A DNA stretch of 64,000 nt, from IMG/VR virus record IMGVR_UViG_3300036859_000186, positions 1 to 64,000 of that record; one strand, given 5' to 3'. Each line of letters begins with the position of its first letter. Within the stretch, counting starts at the first letter, position 1. The notes under the pieces are model-generated. The model worked only from the letters and a program-made list of their open reading frames with translations, was not told the DNA's origin and did not search any database. The position numbers and the translations under genes are program-made. This stretch comes from a virus. This document shows positions 10,578 to 36,400 of this stretch, one piece after another.

Positions 10578-10654
10578 TGGTAGCGGGTGCCGGAATCGAA
10601 CCGACCATACGTGGCTTATGAGACCACCGTGTCCACCATGTTCACCTACCCGCA
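10578..10654 (-). tRNA. tRNA with CAT anticodon (Met/fMet-like or Ile2)
   Basis: Cloverleaf; GTGGT-CTCATAA-GCCAC; TTCGATT T-loop; ACCA end; U1-U72 mismatch. Confidence 0.85.
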
Positions 10655-10658
10655 AAAA

Positions 10659-10753
10659 TGGCACGGATGAAAAGAGCAGCAGGGATGCGGGTTTGAACTG
10701 CGCGGCTTATGAGGCCGTTCAACCATGATAACCCTACAAAACGACCCGTGTCA
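10659..10753 (-). ncRNA. Y-RNA-like ncRNA copy 1 (carries CAU anticodon stem-loop)
   Basis: CACGGGT-CG...GTAGGG-TTATC...CCCTGC...ATCCGTG; apical CGGC-CTCATAA-GCCG. Confidence 0.65.
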
Positions 10754-10757
10754 AAAA

Positions 10758-10834
10758 TGGTGGAATCGACAGGAATTGAACCTGCAACCCCCTGCGTGCA
10801 AGGCAGGCGCTCTACCATGTTGAGCTATCCCCGC
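10758..10834 (-). pseudogene. tRNA-Ala(TGC)-like gene with defective acceptor stem
   Basis: Intact D, anticodon and T arms and ACCA, but 5' acceptor strand lacks about 3 nt. Confidence 0.7.
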
Positions 10835-10914: not shown

Positions 10915-10920
10915 AAAGGC

Positions 10921-11004
10921 AACACGGACAAGTTGGGAATGAGGAAGTGGGAGCCATCACGCTTCCCTGTTTGCGATGATAATCCTCACTCATCGGCCCG
11001 TGCT
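10921..11004 (-). ncRNA. Y-RNA-like ncRNA copy 2
   Basis: GCACGGGC-C-GA...GAGTGAGGA-TTATC...TTCCTCATTC...CTT-GTCCGTGT. Confidence 0.7.
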
Positions 11005-11010
11005 TAAAGC

Positions 11011-11136
11011 TTTGCAGTCATCACCACGCGCTACCCATCCCGGAGTCCACTACTATGTAGTAGGTTACTGTTTCGTGCATACCGGGCTTTAAGATCGGGC
11101 CTACAAACCCTCAAGCCTTGTCCGTGTGACTGCAAA
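11011..11136 (-). ncRNA. unknown structured RNA inside tRNA cluster
   Basis: 10-bp perfect closing stem TTTGCAGTCA/TGACTGCAAA; inner CCGG and CTACTA/TAGTAG stems. Confidence 0.45.
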
Positions 11137-25866: not shown

Positions 25867-26907
25867 TCATGATCGAGCCACCGTCTTCTGGAGGAAGTTT
25901 TCCCATCCGCACTCGTGGCCCTCGGGCAGCGTCGTCCAATGCTTCATGGGATCATCAGGGAACCATGCTTCGAGTCCGTCGGTATCGATCTTGGCAACGA
26001 ACTTCTGGAACTGCTTCAGTTCGTGACCAGCCGATAGCCCTCGGTCCGTATTTCCTCCGACGTGGGCTTCGAGGAATTGGGAGAACTTCTCGAAGTTTGC
26101 CTTGGCAAGCCCCACGTCATTGAGGTTGATGGCCCGTCGAACCCTTGGGAGCGGCACCATTCCACGGAGAGTCTTCTCCGCTTCCCAGCGCTTCTCGCCC
26201 ATGATGTCGCTCACCAAACGCCCCAACCCCATCACGAAGGACATGAGCGGGTAAGCTCGAAGCCAGGTGTTGGAGAGCGTTCGGTATTCGACGCCGAAGG
26301 GTTGCTCACGGAACTCACCAGCCCGTCCGTAGACGCGCCGACGAGTTCGCATGAGAGGGTGTCGGTCAAACAGCACCGCTGTGTTGCCGATCACGATGTC
26401 ACAGAGCGCAACGAAGCGCTCATAGCCATCCTCCTCGTGAAGGAGTTCGTTGATGTTGCCGAAGTGCAGGTGCCCACCAGCGGACCGCGTTCGATACGTG
26501 AACGGGTTCACACGGACACCAACCTGCCGCTTGTAAATGCTCTTGCTTGGATTGCACCCAAGCATCTTGACCCGATCAGGCATGGCGTCCATGTCCCGTT
26601 TCGGGATGCGAATCACCGGAGTCCAACAGACCGTGAGGTCGGTGTCTTCCAGTTTGTGCTGAAGGCGACGCATGATGTCGGCCATCATATTGCCAATCTC
26701 AGCACGACAGAACGCTGCCTGTGGGTTGATCTCCAGCTGGATGCCGTCTCGGACGATCTTGCCGAGCCCCTTGAGTTTCATCCCTGCTTCTGGAATCAGC
26801 TCGGACGATGGAACGATGTGACCGTTCCGCGCCAAGAACAACTCTGGGTCCGAACCGAACGATGGATCGGAGTTGTTCTCCACCAATTTCGCATACTGCA
26901 AAGCCAC
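25867..26907 (-). CDS. phiEco32-like COOH-NH2 ligase (type 2)
   Basis: GSDPE, DGIQLE, GCNP, RSAGGHLH, RRRVYGRAG, GVEYRTLSN. Confidence 0.9.
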   Translation of the reverse strand: MALQYAKLVENNSDPSFGSDPELFLARNGHIVPSSELIPEAGMKLKGLGKIVRDGIQLEINPQAAFCRAEIGNMMADIMRRLQHKLEDTDLTVCWTPVIRIPKRDMDAMPDRVKMLGCNPSKSIYKRQVGVRVNPFTYRTRSAGGHLHFGNINELLHEEDGYERFVALCDIVIGNTAVLFDRHPLMRTRRRVYGRAGEFREQPFGVEYRTLSNTWLRAYPLMSFVMGLGRLVSDIMGEKRWEAEKTLRGMVPLPRVRRAINLNDVGLAKANFEKFSQFLEAHVGGNTDRGLSAGHELKQFQKFVAKIDTDGLEAWFPDDPMKHWTTLPEGHECGWENFLQKTVARS

Positions 26908-26976
26908 GACTTCCTCCCCGCCGCGAAAATCGCGGCACCAACGCTGCCTTTACTCAGCACTGGCTTGTGTGAAATG

Positions 26977-27041
26977 TGTGGACAAGAGATTGCGAGGGAC
27001 CATTTTTATCGCCAAAGATAACGGTCCCAATTCGGCCCACA
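26977..27041 (-). ncRNA. Y-RNA-like ncRNA copy 3 (minimal form)
   Basis: TGTGGGC-C-GAA-TTGGGACC-GTTATC-TTTGGC-GATAA...GGTCCC...CTT-GTCCACA. Confidence 0.75.
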
Positions 27042-27112
27042 ACGGTTTCTGACACACAAAGGGATTTCAACGGCCCAGTCTAAGGCCCCTTGTAGCTGAC
27101 TCCGCCGACTGA

Positions 27113-27541
27113 CTAGTAACGTTCTGTCGTCTTGCTGACTTTCCCTTCCTTCGTCCACTGCGCGATCAGCTTGTTCAGCTGAGTGTAGTCCGGGTTCCAC
27201 ACCACCACGGTTGAGCTGTGGGGAGGATGCACCGGATTCTTGACGAACTCAGAGCGAATGACCGCTCCGAGCTTGTGCTCGGTGACGAACGCCATGAAGG
27301 CGTCCGCATAGAACTTGTGTTCCCCGAGCCACTTCTTGTAGTTCGTGCCCCAGTCCGTCACGTCGGCGAGACACAAGATGATGCACGGCGACCGCATACC
27401 CTTCTTGAGGGCGGCAGCCAGATACGTCTCAAGACTGTCGGCATGGCACAGCCCGCCGATCTCCTGGACGCCACAGTTCTCGACGTAACCCGTTTGTCCC
27501 ATGGTCAGCGCTCTCCTCGGTGAAAGTGATGGCTCATACAT
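27113..27541 (-). CDS. hypothetical protein, paralog of 19358-19711
   Basis: NCGVQEI...LGAVI...KNP...W; start overlaps Ro60 stop. Confidence 0.6.
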   Translation of the reverse strand: MYEPSLSPRRALTMGQTGYVENCGVQEIGGLCHADSLETYLAAALKKGMRSPCIILCLADVTDWGTNYKKWLGEHKFYADAFMAFVTEHKLGAVIRSEFVKNPVHPPHSSTVVVWNPDYTQLNKLIAQWTKEGKVSKTTERY

Positions 27542-29145
27542 TAGACTCTCTCCGCGATGAAGTCGCTGACGATCTGGGGAGCGGCAGAATCGAATCCAGC
27601 CACGTCCAGCGTGCGACGGTCGTCCGGGTCGGCGATGGTGAAGTTCGTCGAGGTCATACCCATGACCACTTCGCAAGCGGCCGGGACGCCCATCTTCTGG
27701 CGATACTGACGGAGGGCTTGCGACGGATGGATGGCACCGGCGTAGGTCTCGTTGTCGGTGATGATGACGAAGCCATCGACCTCAACGCGGTTTTCCATGG
27801 CCCACAGGACGGGCTGAGCGCAGTCGGTGCGGCCGAAGTTGTTGCGCTGTGCAGCTCGGCACACCTCATCGAGGCGCATCTTGGGGGTGATGCCGAGGTC
27901 CACGAAGCGGTCGCAGAACCCGAACGTGTAGTAGTCCTTCTCGACCTTGGCGGTTGCCATCGCCATAGCAGCAGCACCCTCACAGGCACTCAACGGCATG
28001 TTGGCAATTGCGGCTGTCCGCATCGAGCCAGACACGTCGATGCCGAAGACGATCCGTTTGCCGGTCGGCTTCAGAGACTTGAATGCCAGGTAGAACGCAT
28101 CATCGAGAGCGTCCACAACAGCAGGCACTGGCTTCCACGCACCATCACCCCTGACGCCGTGACCAGACGCGTAGGTCTTGAGGGCGATGAGGATCTCGAT
28201 GGGGTGGACGCGTGCCTTGTTCAGCCATTCCTTGTCACCAAGGACAGCGACAACCTTGCGCGAGGCGTCCGAGAGGGGCGCGAGAAGGCCACACTTGGAG
28301 AGGTTGCCCAGGTTGCGGATCATCGCAGTTGCAGGCATCTTCTCCAAAAGAGCAGCCCACACGTCGGGGTCCTTCAGGAATTCGGTGGGGACCATCTCTC
28401 GCGTGAGGCCGTGATTCTGGATGAGTCGGCAGAGGTCACGGGCTGACTCGGCTGACTTGGCAGCCTCAAAGCCTACGATGACCTGGGGAAGCGTGGGTCC
28501 GTCTGCCTTGTGTCCCTCGATGCCATCAACGCACCATTTGAAGATAGCGTTCCGAGCTTCATCTGAAGTCTTCGGGTGCGCCAATCTGAGGACATCCGCA
28601 TTGGACCAGCCGTCCCTCGACTGATACTTGACGACGTGTTGGGCGAGCTTTTCCGTCGGAAGGTCAAGATACCAGTTCGCCAGGGAACTCCGAAGGCCGC
28701 GCCCCAACCCACGAAATGTCGTGACGAAGGCCATGAAATGAAAGAGGTGCGTGGGGATTCGGCAGACCTTCGGGAGAGCAGCCAGTGCCAGCTTTCGAGT
28801 GGCAGGATCTGCAGCAGACGCTGCAAGAGCCAAGGCGAAAATCGCAGGATCGTTCTTCGGTGCTCGTCCTTCATCGGATACCTCCACGATGGTGCGGACC
28901 ACTCTGGCACCATCCGCTTCGATACACCGGATGGTTCGTGCCGCATTCTCCCTCGTCAGTTTCTGAGGAGACGCGTAGTAGCTCCCACCCTCACTGCCGA
29001 GGATCAGGAACCGCAGGAACGCTGCGAAGTCGTCAAGGGCATAGACGTAGCCCCCGGCGCTGTTCTGAACCTGAGCCTCACCCAGGAGTGGTGAAGTCTG
29101 AGGCTGGGCAACACGCGGCCCAATCGAGCTGAACGGTCTCTTCAT
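27541..29145 (-). CDS. rsr: Ro60/TROVE RNA-binding protein (Rsr ortholog)
   Basis: NSAGG, RFLILGSEGGSYY, KYQSRDGWS..DVLRLAHPK, vWA DVSGSM, TDCAQP, TDNET, SIA-like TIADP. Confidence 0.97.
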   Translation of the reverse strand: MKRPFSSIGPRVAQPQTSPLLGEAQVQNSAGGYVYALDDFAAFLRFLILGSEGGSYYASPQKLTRENAARTIRCIEADGARVVRTIVEVSDEGRAPKNDPAIFALALAASAADPATRKLALAALPKVCRIPTHLFHFMAFVTTFRGLGRGLRSSLANWYLDLPTEKLAQHVVKYQSRDGWSNADVLRLAHPKTSDEARNAIFKWCVDGIEGHKADGPTLPQVIVGFEAAKSAESARDLCRLIQNHGLTREMVPTEFLKDPDVWAALLEKMPATAMIRNLGNLSKCGLLAPLSDASRKVVAVLGDKEWLNKARVHPIEILIALKTYASGHGVRGDGAWKPVPAVVDALDDAFYLAFKSLKPTGKRIVFGIDVSGSMRTAAIANMPLSACEGAAAMAMATAKVEKDYYTFGFCDRFVDLGITPKMRLDEVCRAAQRNNFGRTDCAQPVLWAMENRVEVDGFVIITDNETYAGAIHPSQALRQYRQKMGVPAACEVVMGMTSTNFTIADPDDRRTLDVAGFDSAAPQIVSDFIAERV

Positions 29146-29333
29146 TGCATTGTCTCCCCTCTGTTGTGTTGAACGAGTTTCTGAGCTTGCGTTGCCGCCG
29201 CAATCATGGCCTGATCAGACAGCTCGCGCCACACCCTTGCCCATTGCGACAAGGGAGCCCGAACGTCCTTGGGCATGCCAGCGATGGCATCTTCAACCGC
29301 TCTCTTCAACTCTTGATCGGTCACGGCCCCCTC

Positions 29334-29753
29334 CTAGTCGGTCATGTCCTGGTCTACATCGAGCATCCCAGGCGCATCGCCCAGGATGAGAGTGTTTTGA
29401 TTCGTTCGCACGTCCCCATCGTTGAAGCGGATGAAGAAGTGGTCAGGATTGATTGTGCACCTGTAGTAAGTGAGTTTCGAGCCCTCAATAAGTGGAGGGT
29501 CCACCTTGATTACGTGGTGGCACGTAGGGCATGACAACTTGGCTAGACAGTTTTGCACATGACGGTGCCACGCATCGCCAAAGCGCGTTATCCCCATGGG
29601 CTGCCCAGGAACAATCGTGGGCGCATTGGCTATTGGAGTTATCCTCTGGAGGAAGTCTCTGGCCGGTTCCCGGTATGGAGGGAGGGCCAGCTGAGTAGGG
29701 CGGCGTTCCACCCTCGGCTTCCTCTGTTCCTCCTTGAAGTCGTCCATCTTCAT
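29334..29753 (-). CDS. hypothetical Zn-ribbon protein
   Basis: CPTC...C..N..H; GAGG RBS. Confidence 0.5.
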   Translation of the reverse strand: MKMDDFKEEQRKPRVERRPTQLALPPYREPARDFLQRITPIANAPTIVPGQPMGITRFGDAWHRHVQNCLAKLSCPTCHHVIKVDPPLIEGSKLTYYRCTINPDHFFIRFNDGDVRTNQNTLILGDAPGMLDVDQDMTD

Positions 29754-29961
29754 TTCTACCGCCTCTCCTCATCGACACGCAGTAGCTCTTCCTGTCGCCG
29801 TCGCCGTCTTGCGATGGGCACTAGGTATTGTCGCTCCAGTGACTCCAACGCGTTCCTTAGTTCCAGGGACGCATCTATCGCATCTTCGCGGCCTCCATTT
29901 TCTTGGGCAAGAGCATATTTGACGAAAGCAACAAGGAGTCGTTCTTGGCGCTGGTTCATGG

Positions 29962-30141
29962 TTAGCTCTCCTTTTGGCATGCGCCAACATCCCCATGAGC
30001 TGGTGTCAGGTCGGCCCCACAGTAGGGGCACAGGCCAGCCTCAACACATACTCGGATGTAGCGCTCCAGCTCACGGCGCTGACTTAGACGATCCTCTGCC
30101 TTCAGGAGGATGCGAGTATCGAGTATGGGGCTCTTCAACAT
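29962..30141 (-). CDS. small Zn-finger protein (not in ORF track)
   Basis: GAGGT RBS; MLKSPILD...CPYCG. Confidence 0.5.
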   Translation of the reverse strand: MLKSPILDTRILLKAEDRLSQRRELERYIRVCVEAGLCPYCGADLTPAHGDVGACQKES

Positions 30142-30158
30142 GAGCTACCTCAAAAGTG

Positions 30159-30225
30159 CGTCGGATAAATTTCGTAGGCAGCGGTTTTATCTTAGAAGGA
30201 TAACGCTACCAGAGCGACCCGACAC
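30159..30225 (-). ncRNA. Y-RNA-like ncRNA copy 4 (carries UCU anticodon loop)
   Basis: GTGTCGGGT-CG...GGTAGCG-TTATC-CTTCTAA-GATAA...CGCTGCC...TTT-ATCCGACGC. Confidence 0.7.
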
Positions 30226-30233
30226 GTCAAATT

Positions 30234-30338
30234 TGGTGGAGGCTTGATAGGCATATGGACAGAGCGGAGCGGTGATGAGGAGACACAATGCTCGTCAATC
30301 GTTGCTGCGTAATCTGCCGCCAACCCACAACAGCCCCC
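30234..30338 (-). ncRNA. 105-nt RNA with alanine acceptor stem and CCA end
   Basis: GGGGGCT/AGCCTCC-A-CCA: G3-U70 and A73. Confidence 0.55.
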
Positions 30339-30346
30339 ATAAATAG

Positions 30347-30447
30347 TGGAGCCAAGGACAAGTGTTTGCAGAGGGGTATTCCTGTGCGCTGCCTTTCGGC
30401 CCGCTTCTAGGTGCCAGATAACCCTCATGCGTCGGCCCTAGGCTCCA
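30347..30447 (-). ncRNA. Y-RNA-like ncRNA copy 5
   Basis: GGAGCCTAGGGC-C-GA...GAGGG-TTATC...CCCTC...CTT-GTCCTTGGCTCC; GCC-GAAA-GGC tetraloop. Confidence 0.7.
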
Positions 30448-30593
30448 AGCTTACTTCCTTGATTCTGGATACAGCACGTCGAGAACTTTCTTTTGCTCAC
30501 CCTTCGCAAGGTCGGGGAGCATGGTCAGTAGGAGCCTTTCTAGCTCCTTCACGCGTGCCTCCAGAACTTGAACGTGCTTGAAATAGTCCATGG

Positions 30594-31037
30594 CTATTCA
30601 TCCCTTATGGTCTTGTGCCAGAAGGCAACGGTGTTCTTGGTCCGCTTGTTGAAAAATTCGAACCCCTTCCACCAGCCAAACTTTTCGAGGATGTGAGCCT
30701 CAGCTGGGTTGCCAGTCATGTTGACCGTAGCAGCGAGGCTCGAATATCCGAACTCTCTGGCGATGGCTTCCTTGAAGGGCATCAGTGCTTGAGCAATACC
30801 CTGCTTTTGATGCTTCGTTTCGACCCATGTCTTGGTGCTCACGAGCACACCGCAACAGTTGACCTGCTCGACGAGGGTAAAGCCGCATGCCCGTTCGTTG
30901 TTCAGGAAGCCCGTGAACTCCAACAGGAACGGACTCTTGCGGATGCGGATCTGCACGTCGCCCCACTCGTAGAACTCCTCACTGAGGGTTCTAATAGATG
31001 CAACGGCCTTTGGCACGTCACGAATTGAGAATGGCAT
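30594..31037 (-). CDS. GNAT-family acetyltransferase
   Basis: HQKQGIA acetyl-CoA motif; N...ILEKFGW. Confidence 0.75.
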   Translation of the reverse strand: MPFSIRDVPKAVASIRTLSEEFYEWGDVQIRIRKSPFLLEFTGFLNNERACGFTLVEQVNCCGVLVSTKTWVETKHQKQGIAQALMPFKEAIAREFGYSSLAATVNMTGNPAEAHILEKFGWWKGFEFFNKRTKNTVAFWHKTIRDE

Positions 31038-31176
31038 TAGAGGGTCCTCCGCAATGCTTCGCAGACCATTTCGATCTTGGTCTGGATGTCTTCCAGATCA
31101 GCGATCTGATCTAGGGTGGCGATGCGTTCTTTCAGATCGAGGGTAAATGGAGCGTGGCGCATGGCACCATTGGGGG

Positions 31177-31251
31177 TGGCGGGACGGCGTGGACTCGAAC
31201 CACGAACCTTTCGTTTTGGAGACGAACACTCTGCCATTGAGCTACCGACCC
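31177..31251 (-). tRNA. tRNA-Trp(CCA)
   Basis: TTCGT-CTCCAAA-ACGAA; TTCGAGT; G73, CCA. Confidence 0.9.
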
Positions 31252-32054
31252 CTTTCGCAAAATGCGCGAAGTAAAATTCCCTAGATTTTGCCACCAAGAC
31301 GAACGATTTCGAGTTCGACTTCCTCAGCGGCTTTAGTTATGGCCTTTGCTACACACTGATGGCCATCTTCATCTGCTTTCGTGGCAAGGCGAGCCAAGAC
31401 ATCCCAATAGCCACTATCAGTCACGATCTTATCGAGTTCCACTTTGTGTTGGTGTCGCATGATTCTCTCGACAGTCAGGGCTATTTCTACAAGCACAATT
31501 CTTTGCAGATTGTGTGCCTCTGAGAATCCTCTGACACTCCGCGACGATGGCGTCTTCGGTTGACAACGAGTAGTGCTCCATCTCACAGCCTCCAGTGTAG
31601 ACCACGTAGAAGACCAGAGCGATGAAGACTACCCGATGCCAGTGAATCATCTACTTGACCGATCCCAGCTGAATGAGCGGCGCCGTCGAGGTGAGAAGTG
31701 ACGCGATGAACAATCCTGCCCAGAACTTCGATCTCATGACATGAGCCTCCAGAGGTAACGAAACAAGCGGACGAACCAGAAGCCTGGCGCGGCCACAGCG
31801 AGTATGACACCCGCCAACACAGCGGCATCATTGGGTCGGCTGATCAGGTAGAGCGCTTGGGTGAGCGCCAGTGATGTGAGCAGCACGAGAAGGACTTCAC
31901 GAAGGACCCGAAGGACGGACCAGTATGTCGGCATAGTGTCTCCAAACACGAAAAAGGGAGGTGACATGGATGAGTGGTTGTCCAGGGAACATTTGGAAGG
32001 TAACCCTAGAACGCCGACCCATGTCATCTCCCCAGCGGGGCACAACGGCAACTT

Positions 32055-32819
32055 CTAACGACTTGGCATGAGAATTGGATGACCCTCGTCACCAACCTCC
32101 TTGTAAAGCGCTTCTTTCAGCTGATACATAGCTCGTGCCCACAGCGCTACTGCGTCCGGTGAGGCCGCTTGCAGCACCATTGGGAATTCCCGAGCTGTCT
32201 TCTTGAAGTAGTTCTCTGCCCAACGACGGGCATCCTTCGGCTTGATTCGACAGCCCTCAGGCTTCGTGAGCATTCGAGTCATGTCGTTCAGGTTGTCGGC
32301 CCGGTCTAGAGTCTTAAGTGAGGCCGCGTCCTGATCGTTCGATATCTTCGAGTAGTAGACCACCTTCATGGCCGCTTGAAGGTCTTCGGGCGTCTCGTCC
32401 TTCCAATCCTTCGTGAGGAGCATGACAAGATCGACCGTTCGGTCTGGGAACTTTAACGCAATGAGGTCGTGCTGCATGATATAAGTGTCTTCCACCACAT
32501 CGTGGAGCAATGCTGCTGCCTGTGCTTCCTCATTGAGGCCGATGTCACGAGCCATCTCGAACACCCGAATGGGATGCACGATGTATGGGTCATCGAAGGC
32601 TTTACGCTTCTGTGAGATGTGTGCAGCCGTCGCACACTCCAGCGCTACATTGATGAGCGTATCGCCTTCAGGTTCAGCCACAGGAATCTCCGTATAGGGT
32701 GGTCGCGTCCTAATCAAGTGGTGCTTGCAGACAGGGCAGTCGCCCCAGCTGTAAGTCTCTGAATGGACGGGGTGAGCGATGGGGATTAGGCACCACTCAC
32801 ACCACAATTCATCTGCCAT
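32055..32819 (-). CDS. HD-domain (p)ppGpp hydrolase-like protein (Mesh1/SAH type)
   Basis: AH..Q.RK, PYIVHP, AALLHDVVED, DRADN. Confidence 0.85.
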   Translation of the reverse strand: MADELWCEWCLIPIAHPVHSETYSWGDCPVCKHHLIRTRPPYTEIPVAEPEGDTLINVALECATAAHISQKRKAFDDPYIVHPIRVFEMARDIGLNEEAQAAALLHDVVEDTYIMQHDLIALKFPDRTVDLVMLLTKDWKDETPEDLQAAMKVVYYSKISNDQDAASLKTLDRADNLNDMTRMLTKPEGCRIKPKDARRWAENYFKKTAREFPMVLQAASPDAVALWARAMYQLKEALYKEVGDEGHPILMPSR

Positions 32820-32872
32820 AGCACTAGTTCCTTCGAGGAACAAAAGCTTTTCGTCGAGTGAGCGCCAAGGCA

Positions 32873-33313
32873 TCAGTGCTTGATGTCGTCGCCGCTGATG
32901 TCGATGTCCACCGCTGGCAACACCTCAGCCACATCGCTCTCGACAACCTCACCATCGATCACTGGCTCGGGCTTCTGTCCAGCCTTCGGATCTTTCGGAC
33001 GAGGCCGATTGAAGTAGGTCGTCCAGATGACCTCACGGTCTTCCTTCGAGAACGTCTCGTCACCAGTTGCGGCAAGAGCGAAGGTGATGGCCGATTTACG
33101 GCCCTTTTCCTTGTTGAAGACATCCTGACGAGAGCACACCGCAGTCGCAGAGGTGATGAGGTTCGCCGTGACGAGCTTGCCGTCCTTCTGAACGGTCTCC
33201 CAGATGTCACAGATCGTCGTTCGACGCCCCGGTCGCTTTCCGCGTGGTTTCTCTTGCTGGCGTTCGAATGCCAGAGCAATCGTTCTGTTCTTTGGCAATG
33301 TGACGTGTATCAC
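32873..33313 (-). CDS. conserved phage protein
   Basis: AVCS.QD.FNKEKGR motif. Confidence 0.6.
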   Translation of the reverse strand: MIHVTLPKNRTIALAFERQQEKPRGKRPGRRTTICDIWETVQKDGKLVTANLITSATAVCSRQDVFNKEKGRKSAITFALAATGDETFSKEDREVIWTTYFNRPRPKDPKAGQKPEPVIDGEVVESDVAEVLPAVDIDISGDDIKH

Positions 33314-33494: not shown

Positions 33495-36400
33495 TTACTC
33501 GCCCTTATGACATAGGGTTGAGATGTATCGGCGTTCCTTCTGATGGTTGTGGGCTGGCCCTTCGCACCATGGACACCACATCCATGCGTTGACGGAGTTC
33601 TGCGACATGGGGCGTAGGACGTGCCAGATGTGACCACAGACAACCCACTTTAGGTATTGCAATGGTAGATACCAATGCAGATACAGAGCGAGTCGCTCTT
33701 GCCACGTCTTCTGACGCTTCCCAATGCAGCCACACTTAGCACAGTGGGGCACAGGGGCGTCGTGGCATTCGTCGGTGACGAGTGGGCCGCCACACTCGCA
33801 GGTTCCGATTCTATCGGTCACGGTCCTTGTCACCTTTCCAACCCCGCTTGAGCTGTTCGAGGTTGTATTTTGCCATGATGTCGTTCAATGCTCGGATGGT
33901 CATGAAAACTGCCAACTCGTTGGGTTCACCATAGTGGAGCTGGTCCCACAGCTTCTGAGACTCATCCTTGAGCAGTTCATGGGCGGGATGCTTCAACAGT
34001 GGCATTGCTTCTCTCCTTATCCCAACGCCAGACACCGTCCTCGTAGATCATGACGGTGATGCAGTCGAACTTGCACTTGTGGATGGTGCCGTTGGCCGGG
34101 GGCTCGTTCTGTGTGCTCATAAAGTCCCCAAGGGACGAGAGGCAACACCTGAAAAGCCCACCTTGAGCAATGCCGTAAGGCACGCGGCTACCCATTACCA
34201 TTCCTCATCGTTGTCGGGAAAGGCTCGGGTCTCCTTGGCATAGCGCTTGCACTTGGTGCAGAAAGCAGGCCAACAGTCCCCAGTCATGCCAAGTAACACA
34301 CGATGGCTCTCACCGTCGTCGCAGGTGCCGCTTTCCAACTCTTCGCTGGTGGTCAGGAGAGCGGGATCAGGAGGCTTCTCATCGTTGTCACAGGCTCCGG
34401 CCTCTATGACTTCGAGGGCCTCACGCATGTCATCGAGGTTCATCACCACATCACCTTTTTACAGCGCCTACATTGTGCGAACGCCTCAGAGAGGAGCACC
34501 GGCCCATGAAAGAGCGGTGGATACCACACCGGATCGTGTCCCCACACATTGCATTGGGTCATGAGGGGCATCAGCTCCCAATAGAGCAAGAGCGCAATGA
34601 ATGTGAGGACAAAGATACCGAGCAGGTCCATTAGCCCTTCCGTCGATTCTGGCGGTTGATGGCACGCTTCGACAAGATGCGGCCACGGTTGTGGCGCTTC
34701 GATGCCTGACGAGCAGCCCAGCCCACACCAGCCTTCTCAGTGCCAATGCGGTTCAGTTCCCGCTTGATTCGTTTCTCTCTTTTCCGCATGTCAGCCCCGG
34801 TCTCGCTGGTGAAGGTCGTCGGTGTATTCGACATCGTCGATCTTGAAGTTCTCCAGCACCTTCGTGAGGGCGATCTTGGCATCGACCAGTTGGGCTTGCG
34901 TCTGTTGAGCGGCCTTAATCTGGTCGTCGATCACGATGATTTGACGGTCGAGGGCCAACTGAGCATCACGAAGCTTGAGAAGGGCACTGTTGTTCATCGT
35001 AAACACGGTAGTCTCCTCCTTGAGAAAAAGGCAGCACTGATCGTCATTGGGGCACAACCTCACCCCATCCCTACAAATGAGGGTGCAGCGCAGCGTCATG
35101 AGAGGTTGAACCTCACCTTGCCGAAGTCCACGACACGGCCGAAGATGCGGCGTCTAGCGAGGGAGCCCATGCTCTCTTCCATAGCTTCGGCACAGTCGCG
35201 CAGCATGATGTATTCCTCAACGGAGACGGGCACAGATATTTGGAGGCCACGGCCGCCGTTGGCCATCTTTTGACGAACGCTCTTAACGTGGCGCTTAGTC
35301 GAGGGTAGGCCACCCAAACGCCGACGAAAGACTTCTAAGAGCATGTCCGGTCTCTGCCTCAGAAAGCCTGTCAAAATCTTCCTCTCCGTCTTCGAGCCTG
35401 AGAGCCTGTTGACGATGGTTGAGAGGCTCTGACCCTTCATCAGATCCTTCGACCTCAAGAGCCCTGAGCTTTCCAAGCTCGCGTTCGAGTTCGAAGTAGT
35501 CGTCGGGGCTGAGTTTGTCTTCTTCGCCATGCCTGAGCACGTCCTCGATGTCTGTGATACGCTGAGTGTATCGGCTAGGCACGGTCGCGTTCCTTGAGCC
35601 GGGGGGCACGAACCTTGTGGATGCGTTCGACAAGGAGCTTGTGGTTGACCTGGGGCTGAAGCTCCTCGCCGCATCGATCGACGAGGATGGCTAGTCCTTC
35701 GGGGCTGACCCTCAACTCCTTGACAATCTCGGTGCCCTTACTGACGAGGGTTTCGCCGTTGGGCAGCAGGTTTCTGTAGGTGACGGGTCGCACAATGGCG
35801 ATCACCTTTCGCATAGGGACGCCGAGCTTTGTCACTTCTTGTGTTACTTCGCAACGGAACATCACGAACTCCTTGTAGCTTCATCTCATGAAGGTGTTGC
35901 TGCTCACTATCATGCAAGAGATATGCACGATTGTGAGGATTTAAGTCTCCTTGCAGTATGAGGGCTGCAGCGTTCTTGTCTCGCACGACCTTTGGAAAGT
36001 GTGACCACATGAGAACCTTATTGGAGTGCTGGGGGTTCAGACTCTCAAACTTTAGGGACCTATCCGCCTACGAACGACTTCCACCATTGTCGAGCGAACC
36101 CAACACACGTGTCCATCGAGTGACAGCTATAATAATGGAATCCCACTCAATTACCATGGTCAGTGAGCTTCGATTCCCAAGGCAAATCCTCTCTACTCCA
36201 GCTCCCCTTGTTATCGCAAATGCTTTACCGCTAAGCTACCAGCCCCATTGCTGGGGCCGGGGTGGGTTCGAACCACCGACCTTTTGCGAACTTGGGCACG
36301 CTTCGTTCAAGAATGATTGCCCGTCCCCCCAACCTTAGCCGTGAATGAGCCATCCAATGACGAGAGATGCCTCTTCAGGGTTCATTTTCCCTTGGGCTCG

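What the first reader, a model, noticed from the sequence alone, without database searches (positions are those of the whole stretch)
30159..30225. Y-like RNA displaying a perfect Arg(UCU) anticodon stem-loop
Seen: the apical hairpin is TTATC-CTTCTAA-GATAA, a 5-bp stem with a 7-nt loop C32 U33 UCU A37 A38, the canonical anticodon-loop pattern. No tRNA-Arg gene was found in the window. Inference: a Ro60-stabilised anticodon decoy that could titrate anticodon nucleases or tRNA-modifying enzymes.
Basis: partly seen in the sequence, partly recalled or inferred. Interest (0 to 1): 0.8.

Follow-up and report, generated by a model that had tools for sequence, protein, structure and literature searches.

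The report
Phage Y RNA with anticodon-like tip
This is a small partner RNA of the phage's Ro60 protein whose tip copies the anticodon loop of an arginine tRNA, and about half of the seven-base tips among its relatives copy other tRNA anticodon loops in the same way, which I could not find described in print.

Summary
The hairpin is real: 5-bp stem UUAUC/GAUAA and 7-nt loop CUUCUAA on the minus strand, loop at 30198-30192. It caps a 68-nt RNA (30225-30158) about 1 kb upstream of, and co-oriented with, a full-length Ro60 gene (27541-29145).

A covariance model built from homologs found 283 matches beside Ro60 genes in viral, metagenomic and bacterial DNA. All but one lie on the Ro60 strand, and the two outer helices covary strongly. 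The family has the YrlA-type Ro60 motif (consensus GCCGAAG) and the conserved UUAYC, so this is a minimal Y RNA without the T/D/acceptor tRNA-like domain.

The refutation test came out mixed:
- **Against mimicry:** the module after UUAYC varies from 0 to 83 nt.
- **For mimicry:** a 7-nt loop is the most common form. Its profile (Y32 83%, U33 84%, R37 86%, A38 75%, nearly free 34-36) matches real tRNA loops from the same loci. Half fit YU-NNN-RA against 2.6% expected.
- **Loop identity:** CUUCUAA is the loop of 6 of 7 tRNA-Arg(UCU) genes there, and it recurs in four RNAs with different stems.

Anticodon-loop likeness is therefore supported. The nuclease-decoy function is untested. The scan noted similar anticodon tips on Ro60-like partner RNAs in other genomes.

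The parts
30158..30225 (-). Minimal Y RNA (Y-a), 68-nt core. RNA position i corresponds to window coordinate 30226-i.
   Evidence: Best match to family model R2: 68.7 bits, E about 1e-16. Fold z = -3.9.
30217..30225 (-). Basal helix, 5' strand GUGUCGGGU. It pairs with 30166-30158 (AUCCGACGC).
   Evidence: Compensatory changes in homologs, e.g. UGCAUGG/CCAUGCA in L003. All 7 pairs of helix 1 change on both sides across the family.
30215..30220 (-). GGGUCG, the presumed Ro60-contact motif. The family consensus is GGGCCGAAG, which contains GNCGAAG; this copy keeps GNCG only.
   Evidence: Column conservation 0.93-0.99 for G, C and G. Motif definition from Chen et al. 2014 (PMC4201824).
30204..30210 (-). 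Middle helix, 5' strand GGUAGCG. It pairs with 30183-30177 (CGCUGCC).
   Evidence: All 6 pairs of helix 2 change on both sides; 93% of cells are paired.
30199..30203 (-). Apical stem, 5' strand UUAUC. It contains the YUAY element conserved in YrlA.
   Evidence: U, U, A, U, C are conserved at 1.0, 1.0, 0.97, 0.92 and 0.99. The phage ET08 YrlA has GGUUACC at the same place.
30192..30198 (-). 7-nt loop CUUCUAA, read as C32 U33 U34 C35 U36 A37 A38.
   Evidence: Identical to the anticodon loop of 6 of 7 tRNA-Arg(UCU) genes in related Ro60 loci. The same loop occurs in 4 family members with different stems.
30187..30191 (-). Apical stem, 3' strand GAUAA.
30184..30186 (-). 3-nt bulge AAC on the 3' side, between the apical and middle helices.
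   Evidence: Fold. A-rich bulge columns in the family alignment.
27541..29145 (-). Ro60 (Rsr) gene, 534 aa.
   Evidence: Pfam TROVE at 4e-40 and vWA_Ro60 at 2e-60. PDB 2NVO at 8e-134.
26969..27048 (-). Second family member (Y-b), just downstream of Ro60. Apical loop UUUGGC, 6 nt.
   Evidence: R2 43.9 bits. Fold z = -2.6.
31961..32027 (-). Third family member (Y-c). After UUACC it carries the loop UUCCAAA.
   Evidence: R2 29.8 bits.
30345..30449 (-). Weaker family member (Y-f) with a 40-nt insert after UUAUC.
   Evidence: R2 15.3 bits, E = 0.017 with filters off. Fold.
10654..10758 (-). Family member (Y-e) lying between two tRNA genes. A long apical hairpin ends in GGC-CUCAUAA-GCC.
   Evidence: R2 23.5 bits. 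Fold. The loop equals that of the adjacent tRNA-Met.
10915..11011 (-). Family member (Y-d) directly abutting tRNA-Phe, with a 33-nt insert.
   Evidence: R2 24.5 bits. Fold.

Best explanation
The element is a minimal Y RNA, one of at least six small partner RNAs of this soil phage's Ro60 protein. Shown: it has the family architecture. This is a covarying basal helix, an internal loop with the Ro60 motif GGGYCG, a covarying middle helix, the invariant UUAYC, and then a variable 'head'. Shown: in this copy the head is a 5-bp/7-nt hairpin whose loop is letter for letter that of phage tRNA-Arg(UCU) genes. Shown: across the family the 7-nt heads have the positional profile of real anticodon loops. 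In family members that carry a full tRNA-like domain, several have this hairpin 4-5 nt upstream of a T arm, as an anticodon arm is in a tRNA. So the hairpin is best read as the anticodon-arm counterpart of the YrlA-type tRNA mimic, not as a variable arm. Inferred: Ro60 holds the basal helix and loop. The hairpin is the outward-facing effector module and offers an anticodon-arm look-alike to some factor that reads anticodon loops (a nuclease, a modification enzyme, a synthetase or the ribosome). It would tether that factor to, or compete with it at, the Ro60 particle. Which factor, and whether the outcome is tethering or decoying, is not known.
For: - **Location:** the Ro60 gene is 1 kb downstream on the same strand.
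- **First homologs:** the exact 18-mer of the hairpin was found in three IMG/VR contigs. Two of them have it about 470-480 nt upstream of, and co-oriented with, Ro60 genes only 44-48% identical to this one.
- **Family size and strand:** models R1 and R2 gave 210 matches in 166 viral and metagenomic Ro60 loci, all on the Ro60 strand. A further 73 matches came from 80 bacterial Ro60 loci, 72 of them on the Ro60 strand.
- **Structure:** 88.5% of cells are paired against 65% in shuffles and at most 47% when partners are slid. 16 of 18 pairs show changes on both sides.
- **Family consensus:** it contains GCCGAAG (= GNCGAAN0-1G) and UUAUC. These are the motifs that Chen et al. 2014 define for YrlA.
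- **Loop statistics:** among 177 non-redundant members the most common insert is 7 nt (61 cases), and 19 of the 29 inserts of 9, 11 or 13 nt reduce to a 7-nt loop once the complementary end bases are paired. In the 80 seven-nt loops Y32 is 83%, U33 84%, R37 86% and A38 75%, while positions 34-36 carry only 0.15-0.27 bits. Forty of 80 fit YU-NNN-RA against 2.6% expected from composition.
- **Independent detection:** a search that ignores the loop gives the same picture, 20 of 48.
- **Comparison with real tRNAs:** 275 tRNAs from the same loci show C/U32 98%, U33 93%, R37 98% and A38 82%. tRNA-Arg(UCU) has CUUCUAA in 6 of 7.
- **Recurring loops:** identical loops (CUUCUAA 4 times, CUGCUAA 9 times, CUGUUAA 3 times) sit on RNAs whose helices and linkers are otherwise different.
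- **Full-size members:** in several the hairpin is followed by 4-5 nt and then a T arm, for example L143, L215, L278 and L219.
Against: - The head is not constant. Over half of the family has loops of 0-6 nt, other lengths or large inserts. In bacterial loci only about 5 of 73 heads fit the strict pattern. The anticodon-like tip is therefore not needed for the family's core job.
- The apical stem is conserved in sequence (UUAUC/GAUAA) whatever the triplet, unlike real anticodon stems.
- This copy lacks the AA of GNCGAA.
- C34 and G36 are under-represented relative to real tRNAs, and NCU triplets make up 40% of the canonical loops. The triplet is therefore not freely variable.
- No transcript, Ro60-binding or modification data exist for this RNA.
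Confidence: 0.6

Rival explanations
1. Relic only. The hairpin is what remains of the anticodon arm of the tRNA (or tRNA dimer) from which YrlA-type Y RNAs evolved. It survives as a stable U-turn cap on the helix, and nothing reads it as an anticodon loop.
For: The dimeric-tRNA origin model is set out in Wang et al. 2018 (bioRxiv 10.1101/312249). In several full-size members the hairpin has the position of an anticodon arm relative to the T arm. Many members have lost or replaced the hairpin. Family members sit inside tRNA arrays.
Against: The helices around the loop have turned over completely, while U33, A37 and A38 stay at 75-89% and positions 34-36 do not. Identical 7-nt loops persist on otherwise dissimilar RNAs. 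A neutral cap would be expected to drift toward tetraloops or arbitrary sequences.
Confidence: 0.25
2. Anticodon-nuclease or modification-enzyme decoy. The Ro60-bound RNA soaks up a host tRNA-Arg(UCU)-directed nuclease or a t6A/U34 modification enzyme.
For: The loop is identical to real tRNA-Arg(UCU) loops. The phage encodes no tRNA-Arg of its own. Different family members show different triplets, and several occur per genome. A phage Ro60-like protein has been reported to counter a defence system (gp130 of Bas63 against Ppl; PMC11482910). Ro60/Y RNA genes sit in a tRNA-damage-induced repair operon in Salmonella (PMC7790460, title and abstract only).
Against: There is no direct evidence. No RtcB or other recognisable RNA-repair partner is present in this phage. 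The triplets are skewed to NCU rather than spread over known nuclease targets. Triplets do not correlate with the phage's own tRNA set (5 of 23 against 4.0 expected, P = 0.37). The host and its nucleases are unknown.
Confidence: 0.12
3. Not an RNA at all. The palindrome TTATC-N7-GATAA is a DNA operator, or the stretch belongs to the 78-aa ORF at 30192-30428.
For: The sequence is a perfect inverted repeat at the DNA level. An ORF of 78 aa overlaps it.
Against: 282 of 283 family matches lie on the Ro60 strand, which a symmetric operator would not require. The two enclosing helices covary and use G-U pairs. The ORF has no Pfam match and spans three separately folding RNAs.
Confidence: 0.03

Closest known systems
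YrlA / YrlB bacterial and mycobacteriophage Y RNAs (Chen et al. 2014, PMC4201824; Rfam RF02553)
   Same: It is encoded within 4 kb of Ro60 on the same strand. The ends pair into a helix next to a GNCGAA-type motif. The conserved YUAY (here UUAU, nt 23-26) lies at the same distance from the 5' end. Full-size members of the same model family carry the T arm, closed acceptor and D arm of YrlA.
   Different: This copy has no T, D or acceptor arms, so in that respect it resembles YrlB. It does not match RF02553. Its motif is GUCGCU rather than GNCGAA. The anticodon-like profile of the hairpin that Chen et al. called 'V' is not mentioned in the papers I could read, and Wang et al. 2018 state that YrlA lacks an anticodon loop.
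tRNA-Arg(UCU) anticodon stem-loop
   Same: It has a 5-bp stem and a 7-nt loop CUUCUAA, identical to 6 of 7 tRNA-Arg(UCU) genes found in related phage loci.
   Different: There is no D arm, T arm, acceptor stem or CCA, and ARAGORN and Rfam do not call it a tRNA. The stem sequence is the family-wide UUAUC/GAUAA rather than a tRNA-specific stem.
Yrl1 / Yrl2 of Thermus phage phiLo with phage Ro60 (PMC12135203)
   Same: These are small phage RNAs upstream of a phage Ro60 gene, with a 5'-3' stem flanking a loop that carries CGAA. They have been shown to bind phage Ro60 and host PNPase.
   Different: That Ro60 is only distantly related (E = 7e-10). I did not compare the RNA sequences, and no anticodon-like tip is described there.
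Deinococcus radiodurans Yrn1
   Same: Chen et al. noted a possible 'anticodon arm' with a 5-bp stem on this Ro60-bound RNA.
   Different: Its loop is 6 nt, and the arm lies between T- and D-like arms rather than directly on the Ro60-binding rod.

Membership tests
Bacterial/phage Y RNA of the YrlA/YrlB type | Encoded within about 4 kb of a Ro60 (TROVE) gene on the same strand | tested here: met
   The RNA lies at 30225-30158 (-) and Ro60 at 29145-27541 (-). 282 of 283 family matches are co-oriented with Ro60.
Bacterial/phage Y RNA of the YrlA/YrlB type | GNCGAAN0-1G motif near the 5' end, next to a helix formed by the two ends | tested here: inconclusive
   The family consensus is GCCGAAG. This copy reads GUCGCUCUG, keeping GNCG but not AA. 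The terminal helix is present and covaries.
Bacterial/phage Y RNA of the YrlA/YrlB type | Conserved YUAY about 22-25 nt from the 5' end | tested here: met
   UUAU is at nt 23-26. The family columns are 0.92-1.0 conserved. ET08 YrlA has UUAC at this place.
YrlA proper (Rfam RF02553) | tRNA-like domain with T arm, closed acceptor stem and D arm | tested here: not met
   There is no T or D arm in the 68 nt, and no RF02553 match in this region. The phage's only RF02553-like element is at 36197-36300, scoring 34.8 bits against a cut-off of 69.
Bacterial/phage Y RNA of the YrlA/YrlB type | Physical binding to Ro60 | not testable with these tools
   This needs RIP or EMSA. No RNA run holds the locus.
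tRNA anticodon stem-loop (as a mimic, not as a tRNA) | 5-bp stem, 7-nt loop, Y32, U33, R37 | tested here: met
   UUAUC / C-U-UCU-A-A / GAUAA. The loop is identical to real tRNA-Arg(UCU) loops.
tRNA anticodon stem-loop (as a mimic, not as a tRNA) | Homologs keep positions 32, 33, 37 and 38 while the triplet varies | tested here: met
   This holds for the 7-nt class: 80 loops, 40 of them YU-NNN-RA, at least 19 triplets, with the same result from loop-blind detection. It does not hold for the 55% of members with other heads.
tRNA | Cloverleaf with acceptor stem, D and T arms | tested here: not met
   ARAGORN and Rfam tRNA models do not call it.
Metazoan Y RNA / nematode sbRNA (Rfam RF00019, RF01656) | Match to the covariance model | tested here: not met
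   There is no match at E <= 10 in 29000-32000. One homolog, L143:5766-5838, does pass the RF01656 gathering score at 40.2 bits.

The most novel reading that the evidence does not exclude
Phage and bacterial Ro60 particles carry interchangeable 'anticodon heads'. A conserved Ro60-binding handle displays bare anticodon-arm mimics of chosen tRNAs (Arg-UCU here; Ser-GCU, Asn-GUU, Met-CAU, Trp-CCA and others elsewhere). The elbow half of the tRNA is mimicked separately, by the YrlA-like RNA at 36.2 kb. The heads would act as specific decoys, or as sensors, for host factors that cut or modify particular anticodon loops. That would make the Ro60/Y RNA system a programmable counter-defence against tRNA-targeting immunity.
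Probability: 0.15. Interest if true: 0.85.

Novelty: new variant of a known kind. Interest (0 to 1): 0.6.

Why it matters
Y RNAs are known as Ro60 partners, and YrlA as a mimic of the tRNA elbow. What the effector end of bacterial and phage Y RNAs binds is still open. This work shows that a large, previously unmodelled set of minimal Y RNAs carries tips with the positional signature of anticodon loops, and that identical 'anticodons' persist on otherwise diverged RNAs. That points to anticodon-reading factors as candidate effectors. It also gives concrete constructs to test: swap or scramble seven bases. Finally, it suggests re-reading the 'V' hairpin of YrlA-type RNAs as an anticodon-arm counterpart. 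If the heads do act against tRNA-targeting defences, this would be a new type of RNA-based counter-defence.

Tried and rejected
- **Rfam:** at gathering score and at E <= 10 there was no family match on the RNA itself. RF02553 (YrlA) did not reach its gathering score even in phage ET08, which has a published YrlA, so a missing match means little.
- **Public phage records:** megablast and blastn of the region found no match.
- **Single-protein Ro60 search in IMG/VR:** nothing. An alignment of Ro60 proteins was needed.
- **Model R1 on phages ET08 and Cashline:** nothing significant. R2 later found the Cashline YrlA only weakly.
- **RNAalifold on the MAFFT alignment:** it missed the basal helix because the 3' strands were one column out of register. 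I set the structure by hand and let Infernal realign.
- **Thermodynamic folding of isolated heads:** it discarded 76 of 177 weak A-U hairpins and picked up T loops. I replaced it with counts taken from the alignment.
- **Link between Y-RNA triplets and tRNA genes in the same locus:** not significant.
- **Promoter and terminator scan:** nothing convincing on the minus strand.
- **Pfam on ten neighbouring ORFs:** no matches.
- **Supplementary files of Chen et al. 2014 and the two Sim/Wolin reviews:** not held.

Full report
**1. The observation**

Read on the minus strand, window 30203-30187 is UUAUC-CUUCUAA-GAUAA. This is a perfect 5-bp stem with a 7-nt loop.
- The DNA pattern TTATC-N7-GATAA occurs once in the window, against 0.03 expected.
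- The hairpin caps a longer rod. RNAfold pairs GUGUCGGGU (30225-30217) with AUCCGACGC (30166-30158), and GGUAGCG with CGCUGCC, leaving a 3-nt AAC bulge.
- The fold energy is -25.7 kcal/mol, z = -3.9, and no shuffle of 200 folds as well.
- The core is therefore 68 nt (30225-30158), one base longer than the finding states.
- No tRNA-Arg gene exists in the window or in the other 12 kb of this 76-kb phage genome with terminal repeats.

**2. Context**

The 534-aa ORF at 27541-29145 (-) is a full-length Ro60.
- It matches Pfam TROVE and vWA_Ro60.
- It matches D. radiodurans Rsr (2NVO) at E = 8e-134, and also Xenopus and human Ro60.
- It is less than 50% identical to any Ro60 in public phage records.
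- Its nearest bacterial relatives (49-55%) come from Chloroflexota, Armatimonadota and Myxococcota genomes assembled from metagenomes.
- The RNA lies about 1 kb upstream on the same strand.
- The DNA comes from a soil metagenome.

**3. Homologs**

An exact 18-mer search of IMG/VR returned three contigs. Two have the hairpin about 470-480 nt upstream of, and co-oriented with, Ro60 genes only 44-48% identical to the window's. In these two the terminal helix differs by compensatory changes: GUGUCGG/CCGACGC, UGCAUGG/CCAUGCA and GGUGCG/CGCACC.

Fixing only the stem (GCGTTATC-N7-GATAAAA) recovered further Ro60-linked copies with other loops: CUUGUAA, CUUCAAA and CCGUUAA. A fourth copy with GUAUCCG (L035) sits at the end of a short contig, so no Ro60 gene could be confirmed beside it.

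I built a covariance model from seven sequences (R1), realigned, and rebuilt it from 28 (R2). Then I searched three sets of Ro60 neighbourhoods:
- 80 from IMG/VR;
- 80 from metagenomes;
- 80 from bacterial genomes.

R2 gave 94 + 116 + 73 matches at E <= 0.1, and 282 of the 283 are on the Ro60 strand. They are usually within 2 kb of the gene and often in arrays of 2-5.

On the 116-sequence alignment, 88.5% of cells are paired, against 64.7% in shuffles and at most 47% with slid partners. All 13 pairs of the basal and middle helices show changes on both sides. The apical stem, in contrast, is conserved in sequence.

**4. What family it is**

The family consensus runs in this order:
- a variable basal helix;
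- G-G-G-C-C-G-A-A-G;
- a variable middle helix;
- U-U-A-U-C, then the head, then G-A-U-A-A-A;
- A-A-C-U-U-G-Y-C-C, then the basal helix again and a U-rich tail.

GCCGAAG is the GNCGAAN0-1G motif, and UUAU is the conserved YUAY that Chen et al. 2014 describe for YrlA. The published mycobacteriophage ET08 YrlA region shows GGCCGAGAG ... CGGUUACC followed by a hairpin, a T arm, a closed acceptor and a D arm.

In the R2 alignments the head after UUAYC ranges from nothing to an 83-nt tRNA-like domain with GGUUCGAnUCC T arms and D arms (L143, L123, L239, L215, L278, Cashline). The window's RNA is therefore a minimal member of the YrlA/YrlB kind. It has the Ro60 handle without the elbow mimic.
- It does not match Rfam YrlA (RF02553) or Y_RNA.
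- One homolog passes the nematode stem-bulge RNA family RF01656. To my knowledge that family is the nematode Y-RNA homolog.
- This copy departs from the motif at the AA (GUCGCU).

The window holds at least six family members:

| Coordinates (-) | R2 score (bits) |
|---|---|
| 30152-30232 | 68.7 |
| 26969-27048 | 43.9 |
| 31961-32027 | 29.8 |
| 10915-11011 | 24.5 |
| 10654-10758 | 23.5 |
| 30345-30449 | 15.3 |

The window also has a separate YrlA-like permuted tRNA at 36197-36300.

**5.

Lengths are not constant. Among 177 members under 85% identical, inserts run from 0 to 83 nt. But 7 nt is the clear mode (61 cases) and 9 nt is second (20 cases). Of the 29 inserts of 9, 11 or 13 nt, 19 reduce to a 7-nt loop once the complementary end bases are paired, for example A-CUGCCAA-U.

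The table compares the 80 seven-nt loops with 275 real tRNA genes found by ARAGORN in the same loci.

| Position | Y-RNA loops (80) | Real tRNA loops (275) |
|---|---|---|
| Y32 | 83% | 98% |
| U33 | 84% | 93% |
| R37 | 86% | 98% |
| A38 | 75% | 82% |
| 34-36 (information) | 0.15-0.27 bits | 0.03-0.30 bits |

- Forty of the 80 loops fit Y-U-NNN-R-A, against 2.6% expected from loop composition. At least 19 triplets occur.
- The seven tRNA-Arg(UCU) genes in those loci have CUUCUAA six times.
- The model itself scores the loop, so I repeated the survey with a regular expression that uses only the 5' motif and UUAYC. Seven nt was again the mode, and 20 of 48 loops fit the pattern.
- Identical loops sit on RNAs whose helices and linkers have nothing else in common: CUUCUAA four times, CUGCUAA nine times, CUGUUAA three times.

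So the loop is not random, and its flanks behave like those of an anticodon loop.

**6. Limits**

- More than half of the family has some other head. In the bacterial loci only about 5 of 73 heads fit the strict pattern.
- The triplets are skewed. GCU, UCU, CCU and ACU make up 40% of canonical loops, and C34 is rare.
- Triplets do not match tRNA genes in the same locus more than chance (5 of 23 against 4.0; P = 0.37). This holds even though two cases in this window (CAU next to tRNA-Met, CCA near tRNA-Trp) look suggestive.
- The phage has no RtcB and no CCA-adding enzyme.
- No expression data were found.

**7. Position of the hairpin relative to the tRNA mimic**

In several full-size members the hairpin is followed by 4-5 nt and then the T arm. 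An example is CUCA-CUGUUAA-UGAG GCAUA GCGG-UUCGACU-CCGC in L143; others are UCUC-AUGCUAA-GAGA GAGGC in L215, and L278 and L219. This is the anticodon arm, variable loop, T arm order of a tRNA.

Chen et al. labelled this hairpin 'V' and called it less conserved. Wang et al. 2018 state that YrlA lacks an anticodon loop, and they cite a model in which YrlA arose from a tRNA dimer. That model predicts an anticodon arm of the first tRNA at this place. My reading is that the hairpin is the anticodon-arm counterpart, and that the Ro60-binding rod emerges between it and the D arm. In minimal members such as this one, only the rod and the anticodon-like arm remain.

**8. Mechanism**

The following are shown:
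- the family exists;
- it is linked to Ro60 in position and strand;
- its helices covary;
- the 7-nt heads have the anticodon-loop profile;
- this loop is identical to that of tRNA-Arg(UCU).

The following are inferred from established knowledge of Y RNAs (Ro60 contacts the conserved helix and motif, and the other end binds effectors):
- Ro60 binds the basal helix and the GGGYCG loop;
- the hairpin faces outward and is read by a factor that recognises anticodon loops.

Whether that means tethering, competition (decoy) or nothing beyond structural capping cannot be decided here. I put about 0.6 on a selected anticodon-arm mimic, about 0.25 on a mere relic, about 0.12 on the specific nuclease or modification decoy, and about 0.03 on a non-RNA explanation.

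**9. Literature and earlier notes**

I found no paper describing anticodon-like tips on Y RNAs. Related points from the literature:
- phage Ro60 with small Yrl RNAs binds host PNPase (PMC12135203);
- a Ro60-like phage protein next to a tRNA array counters the Ppl defence system (PMC11482910);
- TROVE proteins are listed among phage RNA-repair genes (PMC7824862).

Unchecked notes from this scan report bare anticodon arms on a different 'handle' beside Ro60-like proteins in other phages (e1-5756777, e1-5799854). One case reported a Ser-GCU-like tip that was not conserved (e1-5769799). These are leads, not evidence.

**10. Verdict**

- The RNA is a new, minimal variant of a known kind, the Ro60-associated Y RNA.
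- The anticodon-loop likeness is a family-level, non-random feature of the 7-nt heads.
- The decoy function remains a hypothesis.

Noticed in passing
window 36197-36300 (-): A free-standing, circularly permuted tRNA-like RNA with a T arm GGUGG-UUCGAAC-CCACC, a 9-bp acceptor closed by GCAA, and a D arm. It is closed by the stem UUCGCAAA/UUUGCGA. It is the genome's best match to Rfam YrlA (34.8 bits, below the cut-off of 69) and has no clear GGGYCG handle. In this phage the elbow mimic and the anticodon-like heads therefore seem to be encoded on separate RNAs.
   Followed up: partly
window 30234-30338 (-): A 105-nt rod-shaped RNA candidate sits between two Y-like RNAs with spacers of under 10 nt. 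Its ends are GGGGGCU...AGCCUCC followed by ACCA. The fold z is only -1.7.
   Followed up: partly
window 10654-10758 (-) and 10915-11011 (-): Two family members lie inside the tRNA cluster and abut tRNA-Met, tRNA-Ala and tRNA-Phe with 0-3 nt spacers, as if they are processed from the same precursor. The first ends in GGC-CUCAUAA-GCC, and 10 nt of it are identical to the neighbouring tRNA-Met anticodon arm.
   Followed up: partly
window 10761-10831 (-): A tRNA with anticodon loop CUUGCAC (Ala, UGC) is called by Rfam at 48.8 bits but not by ARAGORN.
   Followed up: no
Loci L270, L217, L222, L204, L187, L126: Arrays of 4-5 Y-like RNAs per Ro60 locus, often head to tail. Of the 114 loci with matches, 46 also carry tRNA genes, 279 in all.
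   Followed up: partly
L145 (IMGVR_UViG_3300050821_002963): This locus carries both a Y RNA with loop CUUCAAA and a tRNA with anticodon UCA, which ARAGORN calls SeC (a possible suppressor).
   Followed up: no
window 25867-26907 (-), 30594-31037 (-), 32055-32873 (-): A COOH-NH2 ligase (phiEco32 type), a GNAT acetyltransferase and an HD_4 (RelA/SpoT-type hydrolase-like) protein flank the Ro60/Y RNA region on the same strand.
   Followed up: no
L143:5766-5838: A phage Y-like RNA passes the gathering score of Rfam RF01656 (nematode ceN72-3/ceN74-2 sRNA), presumably through the shared Ro60-binding helix.
   Followed up: no
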